This document shows, piece after piece, positions 30,854-41,221 of a DNA stretch of 41,221 bases (position 1 is the first letter of the stretch; each line of letters starts with the position of its first letter). The notes under the pieces were generated by a model. That model did not search any database. It worked only from the letters and a program-made list of their open reading frames with translations, and had not been told where the DNA came from. Source of the stretch: a virus. The stretch spans positions 1-41,221 of IMG/VR virus record IMGVR_UViG_3300042934_000171; one strand, written 5' to 3'. A program made the translations under genes and the position numbers.

Positions 30854-32595
30854 TGTGGACTAAAGAACAGATAGGGAGGGCCTTGAAAGACTTCAGGGCG
30901 CTCCTCTTTATTATCTGGAAGATGATTGGACTCCCTCAGCCTACTCCTATCCAGCTCGATATGGCAAAGACCCTTCAGAATCCTCCAGGTGATCGATTCA
31001 TTCTGGAGGGGTTCCGAGGGGTAGCCAAGAGCTTTATCACATGTGCCTATGTGGTATGGCGCTTGTGGCAGAATCCTCTGCTAAAAGTGGAGATTGTCTC
31101 AGCATCCAAGGAGAGGGCAGATGCTAATGCTAACTTCATTAAGAAGATCATTAATACAGTTCCCTTCTTGGAGTGCCTCAGGTTAACCCCGGAGGACAAA
31201 GCTCAAGGTCTAAGGGACACTCAGAACCTGTTTGATGTTCATGGGGCTGTCCCTGATATTGCCCCGAGTGTCAAAAGTGTAGGTATCACAGGGCAGATCA
31301 CAGGGTCTCGTGCTGACATTCTTGTAGCAGATGATGTGGAGGTCCCGAATAACAGCGGTACTCAGAAGCAAAGAGATCAACTCGGGGAAGCCGTTAAGGA
31401 GTTTGATGCTATTATCAAGCCGGGAGGCCAGATCATTTACCTAGGGACTCCTCAAAATGAAATGAGTCTCTACAATGAACTCCTCAAGAGAGGCTACCGA
31501 GCTTTGATCTATCCTCTTCTGTACCCTGAGACATCTAAAGAGCGTAATGACTATGGGTCTAACTTAGCGCCTTTCATTGCTAATCGCTACGATAAGGACC
31601 CTGAGAAGTGGGCAGGGAAGTCTACAGAACCGGGGCGGTTTGACATGGAGGAGATAGGTAAGAGAAGGCTGTCCTATGGTCGAGCAGGGTTCGCCTTGCA
31701 GTTCCTCCTCAATACTAATCTCACGGATGCTGAGAAGTATCCTCTCAAGGTCTCGGACTTGATTGTGACAGACCTTGATATGAAAGAGACCTCCATGAAG
31801 TGGCACTGGGGCAAAACTCCTGATCTTCGACACTTGGACATTCCTTGTGTGGCCCTCAAGAATGACTACTTCTATGGAGAGTTTGAGAGATCCAAGGAGG
31901 TTGCTCCCTACACTGGCGCGGTCATGTTCATAGACCCAAGTGGTCGCGGCAAAGACGAGACAGCTTATGCCATAGTAAAGTATCTCAATGGATATTTGTT
32001 CCTTGTCGCTGTAGGGGGCTTCAAGGACGGATACTCTGATGAGGTCCTCAGGACTCTCGCAATGAAAGCGAAGTACTATGGGGTCACTGATGTTGTCTCT
32101 GAGGCAAACTTTGGTGATGGTATGTTCACCAAGATTCTCACTCCGATATTCCGGGAGATCTACCCTTGCACCATCACAGAGGTTAAATCCTCCACTCAAA
32201 AAGAGAAGAGGATCATAGACACCCTCGAACCTGTCATGCAGCAGCATAGGCTTATCGTGGATGCCCAGGTTATCCATGAGGACTTCTCAGTGTATGAGAA
32301 GGACTATATGTATAGTCTGATCTACCAATTAACCCGCATCAGTAAAGATAGGGGTTCCTTGGGACACGATGATAGGCTCGATGCGCTCACTGGAGCCGTT
32401 GCCTTTTGGGTGGAAGCTATGGCCCGCTCTGCTGAAGTCGGAATGGAGGAACTAGCGGAACAGGAGTTTGAAAAATGGATGGACCCTGATAGAGGGGTCT
32501 TTTTTATTTCTGAGATAGCTCCTAAGCCTGGGAAGATCAAGAGGACTATCCCTGGTGAGTACAATATTCTTGATGGATTCTTTACAGGTCGTTGA
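30850..32595 (+). CDS. Terminase large subunit, T7 gp19-like
   Basis: 581 aa. Walker A-like GFRGVAKS, Walker B ILVADDVE, nuclease-domain FIDPSGRGKDETAY. The start is either GTG 30850 or ATG 30853. Confidence 0.94.
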   Translation: MMWTKEQIGRALKDFRALLFIIWKMIGLPQPTPIQLDMAKTLQNPPGDRFILEGFRGVAKSFITCAYVVWRLWQNPLLKVEIVSASKERADANANFIKKIINTVPFLECLRLTPEDKAQGLRDTQNLFDVHGAVPDIAPSVKSVGITGQITGSRADILVADDVEVPNNSGTQKQRDQLGEAVKEFDAIIKPGGQIIYLGTPQNEMSLYNELLKRGYRALIYPLLYPETSKERNDYGSNLAPFIANRYDKDPEKWAGKSTEPGRFDMEEIGKRRLSYGRAGFALQFLLNTNLTDAEKYPLKVSDLIVTDLDMKETSMKWHWGKTPDLRHLDIPCVALKNDYFYGEFERSKEVAPYTGAVMFIDPSGRGKDETAYAIVKYLNGYLFLVAVGGFKDGYSDEVLRTLAMKAKYYGVTDVVSEANFGDGMFTKILTPIFREIYPCTITEVKSSTQKEKRIIDTLEPVMQQHRLIVDAQVIHEDFSVYEKDYMYSLIYQLTRISKDRGSLGHDDRLDALTGAVAFWVEAMARSAEVGMEELAEQEFEKWMDPDRGVFFISEIAPKPGKIKRTIPGEYNILDGFFTGR

Positions 32596-32608
32596 GTCTC
32601 CAAAGTTG

Positions 32609-32627
32609 ATTGTGACACGAAAGAAGA
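32609..32627 (+). promoter_or_regulatory. Candidate phage-RNAP promoter P3a (ATTGTGACACGAAAGAAG)
   Basis: Conserved motif 14 nt after the terminase stop, analogous to T7 phiOR. Confidence 0.6.
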
Positions 32628-32634
32628 GAATCTG

Positions 32635-32653
32635 ATTGTGACACGATAAGCAG
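32635..32653 (+). promoter_or_regulatory. Candidate phage-RNAP promoter P3b (ATTGTGACACGATAAGCAG)
   Basis: A tandem copy 26 bp after P3a. Confidence 0.6.
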
Positions 32654-32759
32654 AAGGAAAGTCAAGAGTCTGCATAGAGATCACCTTAAGGACTTCATGA
32701 GTGCTACCTCATGTTGTATTGAAAGCGCTAGTTTACACTAGCTATCTCCTTAAGGCTGT

Positions 32760-32821
32760 GATTGTCTTCTATCTTAAATGGTAGATCATAGGAGGTGGTG
32801 GACCCTATGATGAAGACAATC
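32760..32821. repeat. Long imperfect palindrome / hairpin
   Basis: GATTGTCTTC (32760-69) pairs with GAAGACAATC (32812-21). An inner pair ATCATAGG / CCTATGAT lies within it. Confidence 0.7.
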
Positions 32822-32832
32822 TCAGATGTAGT

Positions 32833-32938
32833 GAGACATCAGAGTGTACAAGGCTAAGGGACTTAATTTGAAGACCTCATGTAGGATTACCCGGATGAGG
32901 AAAGCGGTTAGGGATGAACTTAGACACTCTGATGTCTC
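32833..32938. repeat. 15-bp inverted repeat pair (GAGACATCAGAGTGT / ACACTCTGATGTCTC) enclosing about 76 bp
   Basis: Exact reverse complements at 32833-47 and 32924-38. The internal sequence contains a further CCTCAT...ATGAGG stem. Confidence 0.7.
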
Positions 32939-33215
32939 CACCCCTTGTAGATACCTCTAGGTATACTCAAGGTTTAACTAAGACTATCTCTTCTTTCTTA
33001 TTGTTTAATAAGATAAAGACAATAGTACCTTAGGTAAACCTTAAGGAATACCTAGCGGTAAAGCTAGGACTTCCTAGCACTTCTGCAAGGTGAGTGACCT
33101 AGAGGCACATCCTGAGGTTATCATCCTTATGTCCTCCTCAGGATACCTCTAGTTTCCCCTTTAATAATCTATAAGGATGTGATATCCAATAATAACCATA
33201 AATAAGAAGTACCTA

Positions 33216-33725
33216 ATGATAGCTGCAGGGGTTATCCTGGTGGCCTTCTTAGGGCTGTACCTCTGGACCTCTAAGGCTCCTAAGGACATCCCTAAGGCTA
33301 CGCTATCGCCCATTACCTCTACCACAGAGGTCTCTACAGCCCCTAAGACTTCCCCTGCGGATAATGATGTGGAGATCACTCAGACCTACAAAGCGAATGT
33401 CAATGGGGTCCAAGTGACAGCCCCTGTGAAGACCTCAAGTGCTTCCTCAAGTGGTACTAAAGGCATCATTAAGCAAGAGATAGACCTCGCTCCTATTGTT
33501 GACCTCGCTAAGGAATCCGCTAAGAAAGACTATTATAAAGAGTGGTCTATAGGCACCGGATATGGTGTCCATAAAGGCTCTGCTTACATTCCTCTAGAGA
33601 TCGAGAAGACATACTCTCACAGCCCTAAGGTTGACAAGGCGGTATCCATTGAGGCCCATTTTGAGCCTTCCCTAAGTAACCTAAAGGTTAATGGAGGGGA
33701 GCTGAAGCATAAGTGGAGATTCTAA
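33216..33725 (+). CDS. Membrane-anchored / exported protein of unknown function (moron candidate)
   Basis: N-terminal hydrophobic helix AAGVILVAFLGLYLW, S/T/P-rich linker, beta-rich C-domain ending KHKWRF. The SD is weak. Confidence 0.5.
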   Translation: MIAAGVILVAFLGLYLWTSKAPKDIPKATLSPITSTTEVSTAPKTSPADNDVEITQTYKANVNGVQVTAPVKTSSASSSGTKGIIKQEIDLAPIVDLAKESAKKDYYKEWSIGTGYGVHKGSAYIPLEIEKTYSHSPKVDKAVSIEAHFEPSLSNLKVNGGELKHKWRF

Positions 33726-33742
33726 AGACACTCCTCTTTCTG

Positions 33743-33859
33743 ATGCCTCTCATAGTGCTGACGATCTTCAGTGTAGTATTTATGGTCTTCATAGGTCTCC
33801 TTGGGTGGGCCTGTGGAGCGTGGTTGAAACATATCGAGAATAAGAGAAGTAAGTCTTAA
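33743..33859 (+). CDS. 38-aa single-TM peptide
   Basis: MPLIVLTIFSVVFMVFIGLLGWACGAWLKHIENKRSKS, followed directly by a terminator hairpin. Confidence 0.35.
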   Translation: MPLIVLTIFSVVFMVFIGLLGWACGAWLKHIENKRSKS

Positions 33860-33887
33860 GGCTACCTTAGTGGTGGCCTTTTCTATT
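33858..33887 (+). terminator. Rho-independent-type terminator
   Basis: AAGGCTACC, loop TTAGT, GGTGGCCTT, then TTCTATT. Confidence 0.6.
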
Positions 33888-33939
33888 CCAATTTAGTATC
33901 TGGTACTAATAATTAATTAACTACCGGGAGATCTTCAAG

Positions 33940-34101
33940 GTGATCCTCATGTTGTACCTTCTGGCCTTCGTGGTTGTCCTTGAGGATTACCTAGTGGCCT
34001 ACTTAATCTTTCACTACTATATCCTCCCTGGGGACCTCTTGAGCCTCCGGGTCTACATGAGGGTCCTAAGGAAATACATTGATTTTGATGGGAGTGGTTA
34101 A
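33940..34101 (+). CDS. small hydrophobic protein
   Basis: GTG 33940 (GGGAG SD) or ATG 33949. Sequence MLYLLAFVVVLEDYLVAYLIFHYYIL... It ends just before the xis-like start. Confidence 0.4.
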   Translation: MILMLYLLAFVVVLEDYLVAYLIFHYYILPGDLLSLRVYMRVLRKYIDFDGSG

Positions 34102-34105
34102 TCTA

Positions 34106-34306
34106 ATGTCTGATAGTCCTTTAATAACAATTAAGGAAGCTGCTGAATATCTGAACATATCTAAGGATGTTGTATATTTACTAGCAAGGTCTAAGGAATT
34201 CCCTGCAATTAAAATAGGTAACTCCTGGAGAGTCCTGAAGAAGGAACTTGATGTTTGGATAGCGAAGCAGTATAAAGACAAGCCAACATTTGTATATTCT
34301 CTATAA
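34106..34306 (+). CDS. xis: Excisionase-family (MerR-like HTH_17) DNA-binding protein
   Basis: ITIKEAAEYLNISKDVVYLLARSKEFPAIKIGNSWRV is the typical excisionase-family HTH pattern. ATG 34106 lies 8 nt after GGGAGTGG. The gene converges on int. Confidence 0.75.
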   Translation: MSDSPLITIKEAAEYLNISKDVVYLLARSKEFPAIKIGNSWRVLKKELDVWIAKQYKDKPTFVYSL

Positions 34307-34321
34307 ACACTCAAGGAGACC

Positions 34322-34341
34322 ATAAGCACTTATAAGCACTT
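34322..34341 (+). repeat. Tandem ATAAGCACTT x2 (candidate integrase arm-type sites, left)
   Basis: Two exact adjacent 10-mers. The same 10-mer pair recurs at 34553-34573. Confidence 0.6.
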
Positions 34342-34552
34342 TAGGCCTCCTAATAACCTGGAGGAATCTAGTAAATACAAGGCTCCAAAGGGTTTCAATC
34401 ATTCTATACTAATTTTAGACAGGAAAGAATTTAAGGCACTTTTGGGACTCCTTGGTTCTCATAAGGAATCCTTATTCTAAAAGGGCTGAAGCCTAGTGTG
34501 ACCTTGAGATTCTGTAAGATATGGAAGCTACTCGAAGCTAACTTAAGGAGCA

Positions 34553-34573
34553 ATAAGCACTTCATAAGCACTT
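34553..34573 (+). repeat. ATAAGCACTT-C-ATAAGCACTT (candidate integrase arm-type sites, right)
   Basis: Two exact 10-mers separated by 1 nt. The pair overlaps the int stop codon. Confidence 0.6.
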
Positions 34574-35732
34574 AAGACTTCTCCTTAATCACCAATTTAT
34601 CTCCTATAAAGGAAGCAGCATCTCGGTCCCTCTTAGGGATCTTATGTGCATACGTTGTGATTACAGTCTTAGGGTCATCCCCAATTCGATCCGCAACCAT
34701 CGCCACATCAAACCCATTAGCTAACAGATGAGATACATGAGTATGCCTAAGGTTATGAGGACTCATCTTCGTAGTGATGCCTGCCTTCTCTAGCATCTCC
34801 TTAAAGCATTTACCGAGGGTTGAGAAGTGCATAGGCTTGTTGTCTTTAGTACCAAACACAAGGTTATCCTCAGGATCTCCAGGCTTCTGAAGGTCTTTCT
34901 TAATGATCGCTAGGACCTCAGGCTCCACAGCGAAAGACCTACAGGAGTTATCGGTCTTCGGAGTGTCGAACAGATGTTTTCCTCGGATCTCCACAACATT
35001 CTCTTTGACATTTATCACATTAGCTGCGAAATCAATATTGTTCCACTTGAGACCCAATAGTTCACCTCTTCGCATCCCTGTAGCGAGTGCAAGGAGGACC
35101 AAGTGGTATATCTGCTTGTATTGTCTTGGGTCTTTCTTTTGATTCCTCTCTTGGAAAGCCTGGAGGAGTCTTGTCATCTCTTCCTCAGATAATATAGACT
35201 TCTCGGTCTTCCTTCGGGTGATCGTTATGGCATTCGAGGTGGGATTACTTCCAATGATGCCCTCCGATATCGCAGCCTCTAAGACACTATGTATGATTGA
35301 CTTGTGTTGAATTAAGGTATTGGAAGCTACTTCCGCTTTAGTTTTTTCCATGATATAATCATTGATAATACCTGTGGTAATCTTCTGAATTCTATAGTCC
35401 TTGAAAAAGGGTAGAATGTGTCGAGTAAGAGCATCCTCATAAGTTACATATGACCTCAGTTTGATTGCAGACCCTTTCTTGATCTCTAGCCATCTTTTGG
35501 CATAAGTCTCGAAGGTGATTGCATTGGGACCTGTTAAGGTTCCCTTGAGCTTATCTGCCTTGAATTGATTGAGAGCTAGGACAACCTCTGTCTTTGACCC
35601 TGTGATTGACTTTCGGACTTGCTTACCATTCTGATAACCGATTGTGATTTGAGCCTTGTACTTTCCATTGGGTAACTTCTGGATAGACCCATCGCCTTTA
35701 GGTCTTCTTGTGGCCTTCTTAGGGTCTGCCAT
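34572..35732 (-). CDS. int: Tyrosine recombinase / phage integrase
   Basis: C-terminal catalytic HNLRHTH...TYAH. N-terminal arm-binding type GDGSIQKLPNGKYKAQITIG. Start trimmed to ATG 35732, which follows AAGGAG by 9 nt. The upstream 47 codons of the tracked ORF have no support. Confidence 0.92.
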   Translation of the reverse strand: MADPKKATRRPKGDGSIQKLPNGKYKAQITIGYQNGKQVRKSITGSKTEVVLALNQFKADKLKGTLTGPNAITFETYAKRWLEIKKGSAIKLRSYVTYEDALTRHILPFFKDYRIQKITTGIINDYIMEKTKAEVASNTLIQHKSIIHSVLEAAISEGIIGSNPTSNAITITRRKTEKSILSEEEMTRLLQAFQERNQKKDPRQYKQIYHLVLLALATGMRRGELLGLKWNNIDFAANVINVKENVVEIRGKHLFDTPKTDNSCRSFAVEPEVLAIIKKDLQKPGDPEDNLVFGTKDNKPMHFSTLGKCFKEMLEKAGITTKMSPHNLRHTHVSHLLANGFDVAMVADRIGDDPKTVITTYAHKIPKRDRDAASFIGDKLVIKEKS

Positions 35733-35880
35733 GTAATCACGCTCCTTGTGAATCCTTTTGATACAAACCATAACACAGTGCTTAAGAAATAGCAAGGAGG
35801 TCCCAAGGGAAATTTTGGGCCAAAAATTCGTGACCATCCCTTCACTGCGTTCGCCCCGCGCGATTCCCCCCATAGGCCAC

Positions 35881-35902
35881 TGTCAAGCAGTTTCCCTTGA
35901 CA
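35881..35902. promoter_or_regulatory. 22-bp palindrome-ended element, copy 1 (TGTCAAGCAGTTTCCCTTGACA)
   Basis: 20/22 identical to the copy at 36063-36084. The ends GTCAAG/CTTGAC are inverted repeats. Confidence 0.5.
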
Positions 35903-36062
35903 TCCTTAAAAGTCTCTCCAGGATGTACATTTTGATACCTAAGGACACTCCGAACCCTGCAGGCCAGTAACTACGGCAATCTCAAGAATACATAAACAAC
36001 ATTATCGGACGTAGAGTGCACCTGAGGTGGCTTGAGGGTAGCCTTGGGTATTACATTCAGGG

Positions 36063-36084
36063 TGTCAAGTAGTTTCCATTGACA
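36063..36084. promoter_or_regulatory. 22-bp palindrome-ended element, copy 2 (TGTCAAGTAGTTTCCATTGACA)
   Basis: See copy 1. The two copies are spaced 182 bp start to start, in the int / moron intergenic region. Confidence 0.5.
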
Positions 36085-36223
36085 GAACAATCGTTCGCAT
36101 GTCTTAAGTATATCTGTGTTTATTTAGGACCAGGTACTAAGAGTAGGTACTAAGGATTCCTCAAGGTTTACCTCAAGTCTCTACTCAAGTTGATCCACTG
36201 AATATACAAAGAGGGAGGAATAC

Positions 36224-36445
36224 ATGGTGTTACCTAGGAGCGTCCTTTGGGTCTACCTTGGAATACTCGCTGTATCGTGCCTCTATCTGCCTTACAAGGT
36301 CTCCTTAGGGCATTCTGTGTACCTCATCACCTCAGTCAACTATAGATACCCTCTAGATTATTCTTTAGCATTCCTCCAGATAATCACAGTGACTACCATC
36401 TATGCACTCATTATTTATCTATGGATCAACTCAAGGAAGGACTGA
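36224..36445 (+). CDS. Two-TM small membrane protein (moron / possible superinfection-exclusion candidate)
   Basis: ATG follows an AGGGAGG SD. Hydrophobic segments VLWVYLGILAVSCLYL and ITVTTIYALIIYLWI. Confidence 0.6.
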   Translation: MVLPRSVLWVYLGILAVSCLYLPYKVSLGHSVYLITSVNYRYPLDYSLAFLQIITVTTIYALIIYLWINSRKD

Positions 36446-36564
36446 GAAGATGAAGGGAGCAGGGCAGCTATATGGAGACAATAGTTATCAGTATAGTCGG
36501 TACGGTATTAGTAGGAATGTTCTGGAGTTTGGTAACGAGTAGGTAAATAACTAAGAACACAAAT

Positions 36565-36620
36565 AAGGCCCTCCTTAAGGAGTCCACACGGATTCCCTAA
36601 GGAGGGCCTTATTTTTTTTT
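36565..36620. terminator. Strong bidirectional-type terminator between the moron genes (+) and the repressor (-)
   Basis: AAGGCCCTCCTTAAGG pairs with CCCTAAGGAGGGCCTT (at least 13 bp), followed by T9 on + and preceded by an A/T-rich run that serves the - strand. Confidence 0.85.
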
Positions 36621-36639
36621 GTCTCAAAGCAGTTGTTGA

Positions 36640-36843
36640 CTATTTGGTCTTATGCATCCATTCGATCTTATAGCCTAGAACCTCTGCGATCTCTAAGGCT
36701 TCTCTATAGCGGAGCGTGTCATTCTGTAGTTTCTTATGAAGGTTTTGCGGTGATTGTCCCAAGAGTTCCGCTAATTCTGTGACGTTCTTATTCTCCTGAG
36801 CTAATATCACGTTAATTGTTGTCTTGGTATTCAATGGGTTCAC
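36640..36843 (-). CDS. XRE/CI-type HTH repressor
   Basis: NVTELAELLGQSPQNLHKKLQ is a classic HTH_3 pattern. The gene is divergent from a strong + strand promoter. The start is GTG 36843 or, more plausibly, TTG 36834, which follows AAAGGA by 10 nt. Confidence 0.8.
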   Translation of the reverse strand: MNPLNTKTTINVILAQENKNVTELAELLGQSPQNLHKKLQNDTLRYREALEIAEVLGYKIEWMHKTK

Positions 36844-36876
36844 ATCCTTTCACATTATAAAAATAGAATAGCAAAG

Positions 36877-36893
36877 TTGATCTAATAAATCAA
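36877..36893. promoter_or_regulatory. Operator-like palindrome TTGATCTAATAAATCAA
   Basis: TTGAT/ATCAA inverted half-sites. It overlaps the -35 (TTGATT on the - strand) of a candidate repressor promoter (TTGATT-N17-TATTCT, 36893-36865). Confidence 0.5.
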
Positions 36894-36930
36894 TTGGTTT
36901 ATAAAATAAACTAATTTGTTGATTTAATGC

Positions 36931-36959
36931 TTGACACCTGGGCTAACCTGTGCTAGTAT
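36931..36959 (+). promoter_or_regulatory. Near-consensus sigma70-type early promoter (TTGACA-N17-TAGTAT)
   Basis: TTGACA at 36931-36 and TAGTAT at 36954-59, with exactly 17-nt spacing. It points into the early operon. Confidence 0.75.
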
Positions 36960-36968
36960 CAACTCAAA

Positions 36969-36985
36969 GGTTGAAATAATCAACC
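36969..36985. promoter_or_regulatory. Operator-like perfect palindrome GGTTGAAATAATCAACC just downstream of the -10
   Basis: 6-bp perfect arms. It lies at about +3 to +20 of the early promoter. More TTGAT/ATCAA half-sites occur at about 36918 and 36958. Confidence 0.55.
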
Positions 36986-37012
36986 AAATGGTTTAAGGAG
37001 GTCTACTAAAAT

Positions 37013-37159
37013 ATGAAAAAGCCGGAACTGGATGTCTACACTTTGTCAGCGAAACTCGCCTCAGCCTTAGATAACAGGGATTGGGCAGAGGTAGAGGAGT
37101 GCTTTCGCTCCCTGCTCGACCATAAGAAAGCCCTTAACACTTACAACAGTAAGAAATAA
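37013..37159 (+). CDS. early small protein (48 aa)
   Basis: ATG follows an AAGGAGGT SD by 11 nt. First cistron of the early operon. Confidence 0.5.
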   Translation: MKKPELDVYTLSAKLASALDNRDWAEVEECFRSLLDHKKALNTYNSKK

Positions 37160-37163
37160 CCAC

Positions 37164-37239
37164 GTCGAAACCTAAGGGTCTCCCTAAGAGGCCCTGACGG
37201 TCTCCTGGAGATAGCCTACCAGGACTGATGAGATAGGCT
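37164..37239 (+). ncRNA. Type II hammerhead self-cleaving ribozyme candidate, HHR-1 (predicted cleavage 37202|37203)
   Basis: In order: GUC, GAA, stem III (ACC...GGU enclosing GGGUCUC/GAGGCCC), C17, stem I (UCCUGG/CCAGGA), CUGAUGA, GAU. The tail AGGCU is complementary to AGCCU in loop I. Confidence 0.8.
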
Positions 37240-37256
37240 TAAGGAGGTTAGAGGTA

Positions 37257-37433
37257 ATGCATAAGAAACACAAAGGCTGGCTAATAGTCTCTAAGATCGA
37301 CAAGGAAACAGGGATGGAGTTCTTCTACTGTTACACACCGGATGAACTAGAGTACCCTGCGGCCCTTAGGAGCTACGAATGGGAGGCTTGCAGCCTTCAG
37401 GAAGCCCTAGACTTTATCAATAGTTGTAGATAA
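37257..37433 (+). CDS. early small protein (58 aa)
   Basis: ATG lies 8 nt after an AAGGAGGT SD that abuts the 3' end of the ribozyme. Confidence 0.6.
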   Translation: MHKKHKGWLIVSKIDKETGMEFFYCYTPDELEYPAALRSYEWEACSLQEALDFINSCR

Positions 37434-37450
37434 AAGGAGGTAGTGAACAA

Positions 37451-37936
37451 ATGAAACTATCTAAAGTCATCAACAGAGGAACTGAAATTCTATTAGTCAA
37501 GGCGTACCTATCGGACCTCAAAGGAAACTCTCAGCCGTACTTCAGCATCACCGGGGAAATTTGGGCGTATAGTCAGTCCTTAGGAAGAAAGAAAGGCAGC
37601 GACTGTATTACAGGTGGATGTATCCATGAGGAGATACTCAAGGCATTCCCTAAGCTCTCAGACCTAGTAGCTCTTCACCTCTCAGGAATGGACGGACAAC
37701 CTATGCACGCCTTGGAAAATGGATGGTATTGGTATGGAGGGACCAAGTGGCAGGAGTATCACAGGAAGAACCTTGCAGCACACCTGAGAATCACTGAGGA
37801 TCAAGCGGATGCTCTACACACTCTCCAGTTAGATAAAGTGGCGTTCGCTAAATACATAGATGAGCAGAAACCTCGATGGTCCCTAGAAGCTGCTCAGGTC
37901 ATTGACAAGTATCACCTTGAGATTATCAAAAGGTAG
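37451..37936 (+). CDS. early hypothetical protein (161 aa)
   Basis: ATG follows an AAAAGGAGGT SD. No motif that I can name. Confidence 0.7.
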   Translation: MKLSKVINRGTEILLVKAYLSDLKGNSQPYFSITGEIWAYSQSLGRKKGSDCITGGCIHEEILKAFPKLSDLVALHLSGMDGQPMHALENGWYWYGGTKWQEYHRKNLAAHLRITEDQADALHTLQLDKVAFAKYIDEQKPRWSLEAAQVIDKYHLEIIKR

Positions 37937-38021
37937 TGTCTAGCAGGGAGGTCCTGAGGGATTCCTTCAGGGCTTCAATGGTGGACATTAAAGAATAAAC
38001 CACATAAGGAGGACAAGAGCA

Positions 38022-38408
38022 ATGAAACACCGTCAGTATACCTTCACACTGAAGACTAAAGGAAGCCGTCAAGACCGTGAAATGACCGCACAGGTAGCCT
38101 TTTCCCCAGAGACGAACATGAGGACCCTGCTACAATTCACGGAGAAGCTGCAAGAGGTTTGGAAGGAAGCCATGAAAGCAACCAAGCGCGGCGATTATAT
38201 GGAGCTTACGATCTCCCGCACTGTAAACTCCTGGGACCCGCAAGAGGTTGCAAGAACTTGGAAACAGGAGGCCTTTGACTACTGGACCTTTGAGGGATAC
38301 AACGAGGACCTAGAAGGAATCTATCTGGCTCCAGACACGAAGTATACCGCAGCCGAATGCGACCTTTATCTGACTAAAAACATTTTAGAAAGTTTGGAGG
38401 GAATCTAG
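38022..38408 (+). CDS. early hypothetical protein (128 aa)
   Basis: ATG follows a TAAGGAGGA SD. The C-terminal half is acidic and aromatic. Confidence 0.7.
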   Translation: MKHRQYTFTLKTKGSRQDREMTAQVAFSPETNMRTLLQFTEKLQEVWKEAMKATKRGDYMELTISRTVNSWDPQEVARTWKQEAFDYWTFEGYNEDLEGIYLAPDTKYTAAECDLYLTKNILESLEGI

Positions 38409-38409
38409 A

Positions 38410-38481
38410 ATGACCCTCAAGGAACGCCTTTGCATCCTCTTAGTACTCACAGCCAGCCAGAAGCCCTCAGGTAATCACTAG
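38410..38481 (+). CDS. 23-codon mini-ORF MTLKERLCILLVLTASQKPSGNH (paralogue of 39228-39293)
   Basis: GGAGGGAA SD 8 nt upstream. The first roughly 45 nt are nearly identical to the second copy. Confidence 0.45.
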   Translation: MTLKERLCILLVLTASQKPSGNH

Positions 38482-38590
38482 GCCCACCTCAACACGCCAG
38501 AAGGCTGACTAAGGCTAGGTCAACCATTAGGAGCCCTCGGTCAGCCTTTGCGACAATCGAACGGATGTTCTATATTAAGGAGGAATTGAA

Positions 38591-38866
38591 ATGTTAATTA
38601 AAGGTAGTGAAATGAATTTTAAGACTCAACAAGAGGCCCTAAATAGATTTGTCCATAGATATACAAAGGATCATAAACCTGCTTGGGCAAGTCAACCAAT
38701 GCCGAATGGGGCTTCATACCCAGTTCAACATAACAGCGATAAGGAATGGTTGGAGCATACTTACTTCCACGTTACCGAAACAGGTGAACTATCGCGAAGA
38801 CATTCCTTTTGTGAATCCTTTTCAACTTGGCCTGATAATCCCGAATTAAGGAGACAGAAACATTAA
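38591..38866 (+). CDS. early hypothetical protein (91 aa)
   Basis: ATG follows a TAAGGAGGAA SD. Confidence 0.65.
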   Translation: MLIKGSEMNFKTQQEALNRFVHRYTKDHKPAWASQPMPNGASYPVQHNSDKEWLEHTYFHVTETGELSRRHSFCESFSTWPDNPELRRQKH

Positions 38867-38879
38867 TCTATATGAACAA

Positions 38880-38956
38880 GTCGAAACCTTCTGGACCTCT
38901 TTTGAGGCCCTGGAGGTATTCCGAGGGATAGCCTCCCGGAACTGATGAGACAGGCT
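38880..38956 (+). ncRNA. Type II hammerhead self-cleaving ribozyme candidate, HHR-2 (predicted cleavage 38918|38919)
   Basis: In order: GUC, GAA, stem III (ACCUUC/GGAGGU enclosing GGACCUC/GAGGCCC), A17, stem I (UUCCG/CGGAA), CUGAUGA, GAC. The tail AGGCU is complementary to AGCCU in loop I. Confidence 0.8.
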
Positions 38957-38973
38957 GAAGGAGGTCAAGAGGG

Positions 38974-39120
38974 ATGACTAGATATCAAATCATAGAGCAC
39001 ACCACAGGCCGCATTATGGGAGTCTACAGGGACCATAAGAGGGCCAGAAGGGCTGCTGATGCGTTGGACCTTAAGTACGGCAAAATCAATTATTACATTA
39101 AACCTATTGCAAGCGCCTAG
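38974..39120 (+). CDS. early small basic protein (48 aa)
   Basis: ATG lies 8 nt after a GAAGGAGGT SD that abuts the 3' end of HHR-2. Confidence 0.55.
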   Translation: MTRYQIIEHTTGRIMGVYRDHKRARRAADALDLKYGKINYYIKPIASA

Positions 39121-39227
39121 AGGAGGACCTAAGGTTTATCTTTCTATGACTATTGTAGTAATTCAGACAAAGGCCACAAGTCTATCAGGCAACAACCGAG
39201 AAGGTGGACATAAGGAGGTGATTAATT

Positions 39228-39293
39228 ATGACCCTCAAGGAAAACCTTTGCATTCTCTTGGCTCTCATCTGTACCACTCAAGGCAAAACTTAA
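39228..39293 (+). CDS. 21-codon mini-ORF MTLKENLCILLALICTTQGKT (leader-peptide-like)
   Basis: AAGGAGGTG SD 7 nt upstream. The stop TAA overlaps the first base of promoter motif P4. Confidence 0.45.
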   Translation: MTLKENLCILLALICTTQGKT

Positions 39294-39311
39294 TTGTGAC
39301 ACAATAGGAGG
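39293..39311 (+). promoter_or_regulatory. Candidate phage-RNAP promoter P4 (ATTGTGACACAATAGGAGG), 100 nt upstream of the RNAP gene
   Basis: The 19-mer is identical to P1 at 1244. Confidence 0.65.
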
Positions 39312-39410: not shown

Positions 39411-41221
39411 ATGGTGAATACCCTTTCGGCTACCTACGGTAAACTCTATGAGGCCCAATTAGCTATCGAAAAGAAGTACAAGCAAGGTGCCTCTGATCGC
39501 CTCGCGGCTATGTTTGAAAAGTGTGAGAAGGAAGGAAGGGCCTCCTCGGTATCCTTAGGGCAAAAACTCCTGGATCATCAATTTAAGACCGTAAAGGAGA
39601 ACATTACACTCCTCGTGGATAAACTCTTGGCACCTAAAGCAGGTCAAAAGGCAAATTATACCTATATCATTGTGGAACTGGCAGGACTTTACGAAGGCAA
39701 TCGCGAAAGGCTCCTCGATATGCTGACCTTCATTCCTTTCAGTGCTCTCCTGAGTGCAGCCCTTCAGAATCGAGCGAATGCGGGGTTTGTGTCTGCCACT
39801 CTCAGTGCTCTTTCACATATCATAGGGGCTGAGATACAAGAGGAGGCCACTGCAGACGTATTCCTTAAATCCCTTGAGGATAATATAGAAGGTAAGGTCC
39901 TGGACGGTATCAAGAAGCGCAAGGATCGTCACTATAAAACCGCCTTCCTAGACAAGACCATGAAAGGCGAAGGATTCTCAAAACTATCTTGGGATTCTGT
40001 CTCAAGAGCTTCCTTAGGTGCCAAGCTCCTCGAACTCTCCATAGAAGGCAGTGGCTATTTTGAATTAGTACACGCTAAAGGGCCTAAAGGTGATGCAGTG
40101 CTAGAGATACGGCCTACTCAATGGCTAGTAGAGGCATGGAAGGATAATACTGCTGCAGCGGTCCTTAGGGCGTACCGGGCCTGTCCTACGGTTATTCCTC
40201 CTGCCCCTTGGGAAACTGTCTTCGAAGGTGGCTACTATGGGGACCTCAGAGGAAGACAGCCTATGTTACGCTCTGAAGCCTTCAGGCAATGGCAGGGACC
40301 TTCTAATGTATACAATAAAGAATACTTGGAGAAGATATCTCAACTCGACCTCAAGGAAGTCCGAACAGCCCTTGACCACATCCAGAGGACACCTTGGGTC
40401 ATCAATAGGGAGACCTTGGAGGTTGTCCAAGCTATTATAAACCGGGGCGGCGATTTTGCAGGGATAGCGAGAATCGATGACTCACCTAGACTTCCTGAGT
40501 TGACTGGAGACTTCACTGAGGAAGACCTAAAGAAACACAAAAAGAAGCTCGCTCAGTGGCACGCAGACGAACACATTAGGACATCTAAAGCTCTTAGGTG
40601 CCTATCGATCCTAAAGGTGGCTGAGGAGTTTTCTGAATTTGATAAAATTTACTTCCCGATGAACTGTGATTTTCGAGGACGCTGCTATCCTATTCCTAGC
40701 TTCAGTCCTCAAGGTGATGATATTACCAAGGGCCTGCTACTCTTTGCGGACCCTCCAGAATGTCACAGTATGGTCGATATCGAATGGCTCATGGTGCATG
40801 GGGCCAACCTTGCAGGAGTCGATAAGGTTTCCTTTGAAGACCGTAGGCAATGGGTCAAAGATCATGAGGAGCAAATCCTGAGGTCGGCTCAAGACCCTCT
40901 TGGGTTCACATGGTGGGCAACCCTTGATGACAATTCCATCCAATTCCTAGCGTTCTGCTTTGAGTGGACAAAGTGGAAGCAATGGGAGAAGGAGCATGGG
41001 ACACCTGAAGGATTCAAAACCGGGATACCTGTGGCCTTCGATGGGACATGTTCAGGCCTCCAGCACTTCTCAGCAATCCTGAGGGATACCGTGGGAGGCA
41101 CTGCCGTCAACCTAGTACCTAGTGACAGTCCGCAGGATATCTATAGAAGTGTAGCTGAGAAAGTCAATGTGCTCCTTGAGAAGGATGCTAAGAAAGGCAC
41201 GATGGATGAGGAAGCGGAGAC
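39411..41221 (+). CDS. T7-like single-subunit RNA polymerase, N-terminal part (runs off the window and continues at 128-923; 868 codons in total)
   Basis: The frame, translated by hand, is open from ATG 39411 to the window end. YFPMNCDFRGRCYPIPSFSPQGDDITKGLL and AFDGTCSGLQHFSAILRD match the T7 RNAP palm motifs. The ORF is absent from the track because it has no in-window stop. Confidence 0.96.
   Translation, partial: MVNTLSATYGKLYEAQLAIEKKYKQGASDRLAAMFEKCEKEGRASSVSLGQKLLDHQFKTVKENITLLVDKLLAPKAGQKANYTYIIVELAGLYEGNRERLLDMLTFIPFSALLSAALQNRANAGFVSATLSALSHIIGAEIQEEATADVFLKSLEDNIEGKVLDGIKKRKDRHYKTAFLDKTMKGEGFSKLSWDSVSRASLGAKLLELSIEGSGYFELVHAKGPKGDAVLEIRPTQWLVEAWKDNTAAAVLRAYRACPTVIPPAPWETVFEGGYYGDLRGRQPMLRSEAFRQWQGPSNVYNKEYLEKISQLDLKEVRTALDHIQRTPWVINRETLEVVQAIINRGGDFAGIARIDDSPRLPELTGDFTEEDLKKHKKKLAQWHADEHIRTSKALRCLSILKVAEEFSEFDKIYFPMNCDFRGRCYPIPSFSPQGDDITKGLLLFADPPECHSMVDIEWLMVHGANLAGVDKVSFEDRRQWVKDHEEQILRSAQDPLGFTWWATLDDNSIQFLAFCFEWTKWKQWEKEHGTPEGFKTGIPVAFDGTCSGLQHFSAILRDTVGGTAVNLVPSDSPQDIYRSVAEKVNVLLEKDAKKGTMDEEAE
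41095..41221. repeat. Second copy of the 127-bp terminal overlap
   Basis: Identical to 1-127. Confidence 0.95.

What the first reader, a model, noticed from the sequence alone, without database searches (positions are those of the whole stretch)
33940..37012. Full lysogeny module (xis, attP candidate, int, CI-type repressor, divergent promoters) in a T7-like genome that encodes its own RNAP
T7-type phages are the classic example of obligately lytic phages. Some marine relatives carry an integrase, but this block contains more than that:
- a tyrosine integrase (34572-35732, -);
- a convergent excisionase-family HTH gene (34106-34306);
- an XRE/CI-type repressor (36640-36843, -);
- a near-consensus sigma70 promoter with palindromic operators (36877-36985), divergent from the repressor.

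That promoter is the only evident host-RNAP entry point to the early operon and the RNAP gene. The layout attP - int(-) - repressor(-) - early genes(+) is the classic temperate-phage left arm. This implies that repressing a single promoter could silence the whole T7-style cascade.
Basis: partly seen in the sequence, partly recalled or inferred. Interest (0 to 1): 0.7.

Follow-up and report, generated by a model that had tools for sequence, protein, structure and literature searches.

The report
Lysogeny switch in a T7-like phage
This T7-like phage genome carries a complete-looking integration, excision and repression module; a related T7-like prophage sits in the chromosome of a Negativicutes bacterium, so the phage is very probably temperate, which makes it a new variant of the already known temperate T7-like phages.

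Summary
At the stated coordinates there is:
- a tyrosine integrase;
- a convergent excisionase;
- a 64-67 aa XRE-type HTH protein;
- the best sigma70-like promoter on the coding strand of the genome, inside a dense cluster of GTTGAW/WTCAAC half-sites.

The window is a circularly closed 41.1 kb T7-like genome.

New evidence:
- Two pairs of the 10-mer ATAAGCACTT flank the xis-int gap. They occur nowhere else in the genome. The same arm motif brackets the attP of related integrases.
- One related integrase is seen both free and integrated.
- Four relatives (45-48% identity) sit inside the sporulation gene spoVD.
- A 37% relative belongs to an integrated T7-like prophage in Anaeroselena agilis (Negativicutes). 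That prophage has the same layout and is the closest relative with a named host (RNAP C-terminal part 61%, SSB 57%).
- Four more T7-like viral contigs carry this integrase family.

Caveats:
- No integrated copy of this phage was found.
- The repressor has no CI-like cleavage domain, and its binding is untested.
- Temperate T7-like phages are already published (Pasto, HTVC019P, LUZ100).

The lambda-style divergent switch, the Xis, the arm-type attP and the integrase resembling those of Gram-positive-host phages make this a new variant of a known kind.

The parts
32609..32646 (+). Two tandem copies of the phage-promoter-like motif ATTGTGACACGA (32609-32620 and 32635-32646), just after TerL. They read towards g169 and xis.
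   Evidence: The motif has 6 copies on the + strand in the genome (1244, 13192, 13216, 32609, 32635, 39293) against 0.2 expected, all intergenic. That the phage RNAP uses them is an inference.
33858..33880 (+). Terminator-like hairpin between the late-region tail genes and xis.
   Evidence: Consensus scan, 9 base pairs.
34106..34306 (+). Excisionase (recombination directionality factor candidate), 66 aa, convergent with int.
   Evidence: HTH_17 E 3.9e-17. TIGR01764 'excise' 54.6 bits against a cutoff of 28.8. It is 59-64% identical to the xis genes at the far end of the spoVD-inserted elements L003 and L037.
34322..34341 (.). attP P arm: two abutting copies of ATAAGCACTT (candidate arm-type integrase binding sites).
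   Evidence: The genome holds four exact copies, all in this gap. The same motif in the same arrangement is found in L005, L037 and L053.
34400..34455 (.). Predicted crossover (core) zone of attP. Candidate a is 34405-34424 (CTATACTAATTTTAGACAGG); candidate b is 34436-34450 (GCACTTTTGGGACTC).
   Evidence: Inferred from relatives. In L005 the free/integrated breakpoint lies 138 nt from the P' arm and 64 nt from the P arm. Candidate a lies 138 and 74 nt from the two arms, aligns with the L005 core, and reads ILILDR in frame, compared with spoVD AILALDR. Not demonstrated.
34553..34573 (.). attP P' arm: two copies of ATAAGCACTT separated by 1 nt, overlapping the int stop codon.
   Evidence: The sequence is identical over 23-24 nt to the int-proximal arm of L005, L006 and L039.
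34572..35732 (-). Tyrosine integrase, 386 aa.
   Evidence: Pfam and PHROG hits. R221, K259, H326, R329 and Y361 are invariant across 15 homologues. The usual 'GH' histidine is replaced by Asp throughout the subclade, including P0015, which is seen both free and integrated. The start at 35732 fits the N-termini of the homologues.
35881..36084 (.). Two copies of the 22-nt palindromic motif TGTCAAGNAGTTTCCNTTGACA (35881-35902 and 36063-36084), between int and the 73-aa ORF. Function unknown; possibly a regulator site.
   Evidence: Two matches against 0.02 expected.
36224..36445 (+). 73-aa hydrophobic ORF inside the lysogeny block; a possible prophage-expressed membrane protein.
   Evidence: ORF called by JGI and Logan. 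No family hit. L039 and L049 carry small membrane ORFs at the same position, but they are not detectably homologous.
36556..36619 (.). Strong hairpin terminator followed by U9, between the convergent 73-aa ORF and the repressor gene.
   Evidence: -41.8 kcal/mol, z-score -9.6; inverted repeat I1.
36640..36843 (-). Small XRE / Cro-C1-type HTH protein (64-67 aa); candidate prophage repressor.
   Evidence: HTH_26 27.9 bits against a cutoff of 22. PHROG 'transcriptional repressor' E 5e-5. 126 distant relatives, mostly stand-alone HTH proteins of 60-80 aa. Weak match to the DNA-binding domain of the phage 434 repressor. The repressor role is inferred from position.
36876..36984 (.). Operator-like cluster. 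GTTGAT/ATCAAT palindrome at 36876-36894, GTTGAT at 36918, ATCAAC at 36958 (overlapping the -10/+1 region), GTTGAA-N3-ATCAAC at 36970-36984.
   Evidence: Five half-sites in 121 nt against 0.11 expected, the unique maximum in the genome; palindromes listed. Binding is untested.
36931..36959 (+). Early promoter candidate for the host RNA polymerase: TTGACA-17-TGcTAGTAT.
   Evidence: 10/12 with an extended -10. It is the only such site on the coding strand in an intergenic gap. L049 has an analogous promoter followed by a palindrome.
37013..39307 (+). Early operon of small ORFs leading to the RNAP gene. It includes two hammerhead-II-like motifs (37163-37242 and 38879-38959).
   Evidence: ORFs. The e161 protein is 57% identical to an early gene of the A. 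agilis prophage. Ribozyme hits.
39293..39304 (+). Phage-promoter-like motif about 105 nt upstream of the RNAP start codon; a possible positive-feedback input.
39411..41221 (+). T7-type single-subunit RNA polymerase gene. It continues at 128-923 because the assembly is circular; 868 aa in total.
   Evidence: Pfam RNA_pol; translation across the ends of the window.

Best explanation
The block is a working lysogeny module of a temperate T7-like phage, built on the lambda plan rather than the plan of the published temperate T7-likes.

Lytic route (inferred):
- Host sigma70 RNA polymerase starts at the early promoter (36931-36959) and reads about 2.45 kb of small early genes into the phage RNAP gene.
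- The RNAP then uses ATTGTGACACRA-type promoters. One lies just upstream of its own gene, which would give positive feedback.

Lysogenic route (inferred):
- The 64-67 aa XRE-type HTH protein is transcribed divergently. It binds the GTTGAW/WTCAAC half-sites that cover -10/+1 to +20, about -45 and about -85 of the early promoter.
- With no RNAP made, all middle and late genes stay silent.

Integration (anatomy shown, reaction inferred):
- Int recombines an attP whose two arms each carry a pair of ATAAGCACTT sites.
- The crossover lies in 34400-34455.
- The target is probably not a tRNA gene. It is possibly the spoVD-like PBP gene of a spore-forming Bacillota host, most likely a diderm member of the Negativicutes.

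Excision (inferred):
- In the prophage, xis ends up at the far end, downstream of the late genes and of two phage-type promoters.
- Phage RNAP made after derepression could therefore supply Xis.

The repressor has no sensor or cleavage domain, so the induction signal is unknown.
For: Gene families:
- int, xis, the HTH protein and the T7-like core genes are all confirmed.
- The integrase catalytic residues are intact.

attP:
- The four exact ATAAGCACTT copies occur only here.
- The same arm motif brackets attP in L005, L034, L037, L039, L051 and L053.

Activity in the family:
- P0015 occurs on a free phage contig (L005) and integrated (L006-L008), with a clean breakpoint.
- L003 has an 18-bp direct repeat at both ends of the inserted element.

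Lysogeny in the same phage lineage:
- L049 is a T7-like prophage in the Anaeroselena agilis chromosome with host genes beside int. Identity to the window is 61% for the RNAP C-terminal part, 57% for SSB and 57% for e161.
- It has the same order of parts, and its early promoter TTGACA-17-TAAAGT is followed by the palindrome GGGAACATGTTCCC.
- L039, L053, L054 and L055 are further T7-like contigs with this integrase family. In L053 int lies between TerL and the early genes. L053 also has a convergent xis and an RHH-like gene divergent from the early genes, and L039 has an RHH gene in that same position.

Promoter and operators:
- Both are statistically singular in the genome.

Assembly:
- Three independent assemblies are identical across the junctions.
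Against: - No integrated copy of this phage and no attB were found. All contigs that carry its exact int, xis or repressor are in the free xis-attP-int arrangement.
- The arm pattern found no related element in 185,579 species-representative genomes, and only the L005-type phage in JGI metagenomes.
- No protein in 5.8 billion clusters shares three 5-mers with the attP-spanning reading frame.
- Repressor-operator binding is inferred only. The palindromes have unequal spacings, and no convincing promoter for the repressor passed the scan.
- There is no Cro-like partner and no induction sensor.
- On a neighbour-joining tree, the window's integrase is sister to the spoVD-targeting clade, not nested within it. 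Other family members use other targets.
- LUZ100 shows that a T7-like phage with int and a regulator can still fail to give stable lysogens (PMC10134795).
Confidence: 0.78

Rival explanations
1. The module is present, but the phage does not form stable lysogens. It could be a decaying or recently acquired cassette, or one used only for transient carriage, so that the phage behaves as lytic in practice, as reported for LUZ100.
For: Only free-form contigs were found, and no attB or lysogen turned up in any collection searched. The repressor has no sensor domain and no partner. LUZ100 carries int and a regulator but gave no stable lysogens (PMC10134795).
Against: All parts are intact. The catalytic residues are conserved. 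The arm sites are exact and symmetric. xis is 59-64% identical to xis genes of integrated elements. The same architecture is kept across at least 6 diverged T7-like genomes, one of them integrated in an isolate genome. A decaying cassette would not be expected to be conserved in this way.
Confidence: 0.13
2. The small HTH protein is not the prophage repressor. It could be a Cro-like or other early regulator, or an antitoxin-type or defence-associated HTH protein. Immunity, if there is any, would then be encoded elsewhere.
For: It is only 64-67 aa, the size of Cro. The family hits are weak and there is no NCBIfam hit. The spacing of the half-sites is inconsistent. The 22-nt palindromic motif at 35881 and 36063 has no assigned binder.
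Against: It is transcribed away from the early operon, on the int strand. This is the position held by the small RHH genes of L039 and L049 and by the RHH-like gene of L053. No other DNA-binding gene exists between TerL and the RNAP gene. Its gene abuts the half-site cluster that overlaps the early promoter.
Confidence: 0.15
3. The contig is an assembly chimera that joins a lytic T7-like phage to an unrelated integrative element.
For: It is a metagenome assembly. The GC content of the 34-37 kb block is about 5 points lower than the rest of the genome. The integrase's nearest cultured relatives are phages of Gram-positive hosts, whereas the structural genes resemble proteobacterial T7-likes.
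Against: Contigs from three samples are 100% identical across TerL-xis-int (L001, window 31383-36594) and across int-repressor-early genes (L047, window 35360-37266). The same junctions exist in L053 and in the A. agilis isolate genome.
Confidence: 0.02

Closest known systems
Published temperate T7-like phages: Rhizobium/Agrobacterium phage Pasto group (Boeckman et al. 2022, as summarised in PMC10134795), Pseudomonas phage LUZ100, pelagiphage HTVC019P, and the T7-like prophage of P. putida KT2440
   Same: They share a T7-type genome with its own RNAP, a tyrosine integrase upstream of the RNAP gene, and a small regulator proposed to shut off RNAP expression. A phage-type promoter directly upstream of the RNAP gene is also seen in LUZ100 (PMC10134795).
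   Different: In Pasto, the HTH (MarR-like) gene and int lie co-oriented inside the early operon. Its attP is a tRNA-Leu fragment and no xis is annotated. Here int and the repressor are on the opposite strand, divergent from the early operon. There is a convergent xis, an attP with arm sites, and no tRNA. The window's Int is only 22% identical to Pasto Int, and the regulators are unrelated. The module was therefore acquired independently.
Lambda-type immunity and integration regions (cI-OR-cro; attP with arm-type Int sites, Int plus Xis)
   Same: A repressor gene is divergent from the early lytic promoter, with operator-like palindromes between them. The integrase has an N-terminal arm-binding/SAM-like domain and repeated arm sites on both sides of a core. 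A small HTH excisionase is present. This comparison rests on established knowledge of lambda together.
   Different: The repressor is a bare HTH domain with no C-terminal dimerisation or RecA-cleavage domain. There is no recognisable Cro. xis is on the other side of attP from int. The thing being silenced is a single-subunit RNAP cascade rather than N/Q antitermination.
T7-like prophage of Anaeroselena agilis (GCA_032334055.1, contig JAUOZS010000001.1, about 981-1002 kb), apparently undescribed, and IMG/VR contigs 3300032038_000200, 3300045988_103347, 3300045988_185944 and 3300045988_089611
   Same: They belong to the same phage lineage (RNAP C-terminal part 43-61% identical, TerL 62%, SSB 57%), carry the same integrase family, and (where the locus was examined: L049, L039, L053) keep the same order: int, small repressor, divergent early operon, RNAP. 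Two of them (L039 and L053) also carry GTGCTTAT arm pairs. A hammerhead-II ribozyme in the early operon is shared with the A. agilis prophage.
   Different: Where a repressor gene was identified (L039, L049, L053) it is an RHH or RHH-like protein rather than an XRE HTH. The integrases are only 31-37% identical. The A. agilis prophage is inserted next to a UbiE-type methyltransferase gene, not in spoVD.
Sporulation-gene intervening elements (skin in sigK, SPbeta in spsM, gin in gerE, yin in yabG; PMC4191935, PMC5595907, PMC10747680)
   Same: The four integrase relatives examined at 45-48% identity sit inside the coding sequence of a sporulation gene (spoVD), with an Int and an RDF at opposite ends of the element.
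   Different: For the window phage this target is only predicted. Developmentally timed excision is untested for all of them. No paper in the searched library mentions spoVD together with 'intervening element'.

Membership tests
Tyrosine (lambda-Int-type) phage integrase | Catalytic domain with the R-K-H-R-(H/W)-Y residues | tested here: met
   PF00589 E 1.3e-27. R221, K259, H326, R329 and Y361 are invariant in a 15-sequence alignment. The fifth position is Asp throughout the subclade, including members that are demonstrably integrated.
Tyrosine (lambda-Int-type) phage integrase | N-terminal arm-binding/SAM-like domain, and an attP with repeated arm-type sites flanking a core | tested here: met
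   PF14659 E 2.5e-13. There are 2+2 exact copies of ATAAGCACTT only in the xis-int gap. The arms are conserved in relatives while the sequence between them diverges.
Tyrosine (lambda-Int-type) phage integrase | Demonstrated attP x attB recombination (both integrated and free forms observed) | tested here: not met
   For this phage only the free form was found. The feature is met for relative P0015 and for the lineage through the A. agilis prophage.
Excisionase / recombination directionality factor (TIGR01764, HTH_17) | Small winged-helix/HTH 'excise' domain encoded next to attP and int | tested here: met
   TIGR01764 54.6 bits against a cutoff of 28.8; HTH_17 E 3.9e-17. Orthologues lie at the opposite end of the integrated elements L003 and L037. 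Control of recombination direction cannot be tested here.
Lambda CI / 434 cI-type prophage repressor | Cro/C1-type HTH DNA-binding domain | tested here: met
   PF13443 27.9 bits against a cutoff of 22. Weak match to the 434 repressor DNA-binding domain, E 0.02-0.04.
Lambda CI / 434 cI-type prophage repressor | C-terminal oligomerisation / S24 self-cleavage domain that gives SOS inducibility | tested here: not met
   The protein is 64-67 aa, HTH only. Its relatives are mostly 60-80 aa.
Lambda CI / 434 cI-type prophage repressor | Binds operators that overlap the lytic promoter | not testable with these tools
   The half-site cluster over the promoter is consistent with this, but binding needs EMSA or footprinting.
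Autographiviridae / T7-like phage | Single-subunit RNAP plus collinear T7-type replication, structural and packaging genes on one strand | tested here: met
   Pfam hits for RNA_pol, Helic-prim_T7_N, DNA_pol_A, Head-tail_con, Gp10A-like, Phage_nozzle (987 bits), Phage_T7_tail and Terminase-T7. Best identities to cultured phages are only 38-45%.
Pasto/LUZ100-type temperate T7-like module | MarR-like regulator co-transcribed with int inside the early operon; attP in a tRNA gene | tested here: not met
   No MarR-like protein. The regulator and int are on the opposite strand. ARAGORN finds no tRNA. Int is 22% identical to Pasto Int and the regulators show no similarity.
Sporulation-gene intervening element (inserted in spoVD) | attB lies inside a sporulation gene that is restored on excision | tested here: inconclusive
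   Four relatives split spoVD (TIGR02214 764 bits against a cutoff of 688). In the window, the sequence at the predicted core reads ILILDR compared with spoVD AILALDR, at matching arm spacing. However, no attB was found, and the integrase is sister to the spoVD clade rather than inside it.

The most novel reading that the evidence does not exclude
The phage belongs to an undescribed lineage of temperate T7-like phages of diderm, spore-forming Bacillota (Negativicutes). This member integrates inside the sporulation gene spoVD, as its integrase relatives do. A T7-type prophage would then act as a sporulation-gene intervening element, and its excision (Xis supplied by the phage's own RNAP) would restore spoVD.
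Probability: 0.2. Interest if true: 0.75.

Novelty: new variant of a known kind. Interest (0 to 1): 0.5.

Why it matters
T7 is the textbook obligately lytic phage, and T7-like phages are favoured for therapy and for synthetic biology. Temperate relatives are now known, but so far with one type of module: a MarR-like regulator plus int inside the early operon, and a tRNA attB.

This genome and its relatives show that a T7-type RNAP cascade has been placed under a different, lambda-style switch. That switch has a divergent small repressor (XRE or RHH, apparently interchangeable), Xis, and an arm-type attP. Its integrase resembles those of phages of Gram-positive hosts.

The lineage reaches Negativicutes, where an integrated copy exists in a cultured strain. 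That strain gives a testable system for asking how a self-amplifying RNAP loop is kept silent in a prophage.

The by-product may be of separate interest to sporulation biology: a family of integrases whose members split spoVD.

Tried and rejected
- DNA search of the block against 50,697 GenBank phages found no match.
- A single-protein integrase scan of IMG/VR found nothing. An alignment-based scan was needed.
- A scan of species-representative genomes with the arm pattern gave 17 hits. None had a related integrase within the locus, so they were treated as chance matches.
- A metagenome scan with the 23-nt P' arm returned only the L005-type phage, not even the window contig.
- The 57-aa frame across attP was used as a protein query to catch chimeric lysogen ORFs or a matching host PBP. 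There were no candidates. An earlier attempt failed on an E-value limit.
- The repressor homologue search by word index found only the protein itself.
- A single-sequence AlphaFold model of the repressor gave two long helices rather than an HTH fold (pTM 0.48, and the other four models scored 70 or below). It was judged unreliable and was not used for a fold search.
- The 73-aa ORF compared with the L039 72-aa membrane ORF showed no similarity.
- The Boeckman 2022 paper is not in the held library. Its content is cited only through PMC10134795.
- A tRNA-type attP was considered and rejected: there is no tRNA or tmRNA in the window.
- I considered whether the missing 'GH' histidine inactivates Int. 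This was rejected because the whole active subclade shares the substitution.
- The rli56 Rfam hit at 36542-36627 is below threshold and is simply the terminator hairpin.

Full report
**What the window is.** The 41,221-base window is a circularly closed metagenome assembly. Bases 1-127 repeat at 41095-41221, and the break falls inside the RNA polymerase gene. It corresponds to JGI 3300042922 contig Ga0456363_0001510.

It is a genuine T7-like genome. Nearly all genes lie on one strand in the T7 order:
- single-subunit RNAP (39411 to the end of the window, continuing at 128-923);
- SSB and endonuclease I;
- primase-helicase, DNA polymerase and ligase;
- portal, capsid, nozzle (987 bits), internal virion proteins and tail fibre;
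- holin and large terminase.

It is distant from cultured phages. The best identities are 45% for the nozzle and 38-39% for the RNAP. The block under study has no DNA match among 50,697 GenBank phages.

**Checking the observation.** All four listed parts are real.
- 34572-35732 (-) is a tyrosine integrase: Phage_integrase E 1.3e-27, with an N-terminal SAM-like domain and PHROG integrase E 2e-65.
- 34106-34306 (+) is an excisionase-family protein: HTH_17 E 3.9e-17, and TIGR01764 54.6 bits against a cutoff of 28.8.
- 36640-36843 (-) is a Cro/C1-type HTH protein: HTH_26 27.9 bits against a cutoff of 22.
- 36931-36959 (+) reads TTGACA-17-TAGTAT preceded by TG, 10 of 12.

Promoter-like sites in the 7-kb region as a whole are no more numerous than chance (9 against 11.6). 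This one, however, is the only site of 10/12 or better in the whole genome that lies on the coding strand in an intergenic gap.

The palindromes exist, at 36877-36893 and 36969-36985. The half-site GTTGAW/WTCAAC occurs five times in 121 nt against 0.11 expected, the single densest spot in the genome.

The layout needs two corrections. A 73-aa hydrophobic ORF on the + strand and a very strong terminator lie between int and the repressor (36556-36619; -41.8 kcal/mol, z -9.6, followed by U9). The two genes are therefore separate units. The assembly is not chimeric: contigs from two other samples are 100% identical across window 31383-36594 and 35360-37266.

**The attachment site.** Two abutting copies of ATAAGCACTT lie at 34322-34341. 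Two more, 1 nt apart, lie at 34553-34573 and overlap the int stop codon. These four are the only exact copies in the genome.

The same motif in the same arrangement brackets the int-xis gap of a phage whose integrase is only 45% identical (L005). The sequence between the arms has diverged. That is the signature of arm-type integrase binding sites.

The L005 phage is also found integrated (L006-L008). The alignment breaks cleanly 138 nt from the int-proximal arm and 64 nt from the other arm. In the window, the equivalent position is 34405-34424. A second candidate lies at 34436-34450. I report 34400-34455 as the predicted crossover zone. This is an inference.

**Is the integrase intact?** In an alignment of 15 homologues, R221, K259, H326, R329 and Y361 are invariant. 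The usual histidine of the 'GH' motif is Asp in the window, but it is Asp throughout the subclade, which includes members that are clearly integrated. It is therefore not a defect.

**Where relatives integrate.** All four integrase relatives examined at 45-48% identity (P0004, P0008, P0014, P0015) sit inside a class-B penicillin-binding-protein gene directly after mraZ-rsmH-ftsL.
- The gene is cut at the codons for A-A-I-L-A-L.
- In L003 an 18-bp direct repeat (TAATGCCAAAATAGCAGC) marks both ends of the insert.
- The rejoined protein is SpoVD (TIGR02214 764 bits against a cutoff of 688), and the neighbouring gene is spoVE.
- The window's xis is 59-64% identical to the xis genes at the far end of two of these inserts.
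- At the window's predicted core, the frame that would continue the host gene reads ILILDR. The spoVD sequence is AILALDR.

This points to spoVD as the target but does not prove it. On a neighbour-joining tree, the window's integrase is sister to the spoVD group rather than inside it. More distant members use other sites.

**Lysogeny in the same phage lineage.** The integrase homologue P0024 (37% identity) lies in the chromosome of the isolate Anaeroselena agilis (Bacillota, Negativicutes). It is at the edge of a T7-like prophage. On the strand opposite to int the prophage carries SSB, an 864-aa RNAP and an early operon. On the int strand it carries a 51-aa RHH protein, a small membrane ORF and int. 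Host genes follow directly after int.

This prophage is the closest relative of the window phage with a named host. Identities are 61% for the RNAP C-terminal part, 57% for SSB and 57% for the early protein e161. Its early promoter, TTGACA-17-TAAAGT with TG, is followed by the palindrome GGGAACATGTTCCC and faces away from the RHH gene.

Four IMG/VR contigs of 36-43 kb are also T7-like and carry this integrase family. They are L039, L053, L054 and L055.
- RNAP C-terminal part 43-55% identical.
- In L053, TerL is 62% identical and int lies between TerL and the early genes.
- L053 has a convergent xis, GTGCTTAT arm pairs on both sides of a roughly 200-nt gap, and an RHH-like gene divergent from the early genes.
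- L039 has an int-proximal arm identical to the window's and a 49-aa RHH gene in the repressor position.

The architecture is therefore conserved in the lineage, while the repressor family is exchangeable.

**What could not be found.** Every contig that carries the window's exact int, xis or repressor is in the free arrangement. The arm pattern found no related element in the species-representative genomes, and only the L005-type phage in JGI metagenomes. No protein in the 5.8-billion-cluster collection shares even three 5-mers with the frame across attP, so no chimeric lysogen ORF is on record.

**The repressor.** It has no close relatives. Its 126 distant relatives are mostly stand-alone HTH proteins of 60-80 aa. 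There is a weak resemblance to the DNA-binding domain of the 434 repressor. It lacks any CI-like C-terminal domain, so SOS-type self-cleavage is not expected, and the induction route is unknown. No Cro-like gene is recognisable among the early ORFs. A single-sequence structure model was unreliable and was not used.

**Likely mechanism.** Steps shown: the parts, their families, their order, the arm sites, the singular promoter and half-site cluster, and integration by relatives.

Steps inferred:
- Host RNA polymerase enters at 36931-36959 and reads 2.45 kb into the RNAP gene.
- The small HTH protein blocks this by binding the half-sites from about -85 to +20.
- The phage RNAP uses the ATTGTGACACRA motif. 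It has six + strand intergenic copies against 0.2 expected, and one lies about 105 nt upstream of the RNAP start codon. This would give a self-amplifying loop that makes tight repression essential.
- After integration, xis lies at the far end of the prophage, downstream of two of these motifs (32609 and 32635). Derepression could therefore couple RNAP synthesis to excision.

Two weaker sigma70-like sites at 38384 and 38548 mean that the early promoter is the best host entry point, but not provably the only one.

**Comparison with what is known.** Temperate T7-like phages are established. PMC10134795 summarises several lines of evidence:
- the P. putida KT2440 prophage;
- integrases next to the RNAP gene in several phages;
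- demonstrated lysogeny for Pelagibacter and Agrobacterium phages;
- widespread T7-like prophages;
- a model in which a MarR-like regulator represses RNAP expression.

Phage Pasto shows that plan. Its HTH gene and int are co-oriented inside the early operon, its attP is a tRNA-Leu fragment, and no xis is annotated.

The window differs in every part. Its Int is 22% identical to Pasto Int, the regulators are unrelated, there is no tRNA, and the genes are arranged as a lambda-style divergent switch with Xis. The integrase's nearest cultured relatives are phages of Gram-positive hosts, all below 30% identity.

I therefore class this as a new variant of a known kind, with interest 0.5. The general claim is no longer surprising. 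The independent, differently built module, the Negativicutes host link and the possible spoVD target are new and testable.

Noticed in passing
window 38879-38959 (+) and 37163-37242 (+); L049 6858-6938 (-): There are two hammerhead type II-like ribozyme motifs in intergenic gaps of the early operon. Each ends at the ribosome-binding site of the next gene. Scores are 35.3 bits (gathering threshold 37, E 2e-4) and 24.6 bits. They are the only CGAAAC...CUGAUGA pairs in the genome, and they are paralogous to each other. The A. agilis T7-like prophage has one above threshold (40.4 bits) in its early operon. Self-cleaving RNAs therefore appear to be conserved in the early transcripts of this lineage.
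   Followed up: partly
L003 8824-8841 and 18262-18279; L006/L007 about 11286; L034 about 4413; L037 about 7220: A family of integrative elements splits the coding sequence of the sporulation gene spoVD at the codons A-A-I-L-A-L, next to mraZ-rsmH-ftsL. The family includes a 40-kb phage with a PolIII-alpha gene and small islands of about 2.5 to about 9 kb. Int and Xis lie at opposite ends of the element. No paper in the searched library links spoVD with intervening elements.
   Followed up: partly
L049 (Anaeroselena agilis GCA_032334055.1, JAUOZS010000001.1, about 981-1002 kb): An integrated T7-like prophage lies in a cultured Negativicutes (diderm Bacillota) strain, with RNAP, SSB, an RHH repressor and int. 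It is the closest relative of the window phage with a named host. Only one end of the prophage was retrievable.
   Followed up: partly
window 35881-35902 and 36063-36084: The 22-nt motif TGTCAAGNAGTTTCCNTTGACA occurs twice, 182 nt apart, between int and the 73-aa ORF (0.02 expected). It is an inverted repeat with back-to-back TTGACA boxes. No binder or function has been assigned.
   Followed up: partly
window 1244, 13192, 13216, 32609, 32635, 39293 (+): Six intergenic copies of ATTGTGACAC(A/G)A on the + strand are candidate phage-RNAP promoters. The core TTGTGACACAA is itself palindromic, so a binding site for a dimeric protein cannot be excluded. None was found between 1.3 and 13.2 kb.
   Followed up: partly
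window 34307-34480 (+): A 57-codon frame without stop codons, and without a start codon, runs from the xis stop across the whole attP core zone. It would extend a host gene interrupted at the core by about 9-19 codons, as happens in the spoVD-inserted relatives.
   Followed up: partly
L053 17979-18060 (-): There is an Rfam RT-18 RNA hit above threshold (45.1 bits against 41.3) in a related T7-like viral contig.
   Followed up: no
window 34000-37000: The lysogeny block has a lower GC content (0.40-0.44) than the rest of the genome (0.45-0.50), and its GC skew is reversed. This is consistent with horizontal acquisition and with the opposite coding strand.
   Followed up: no
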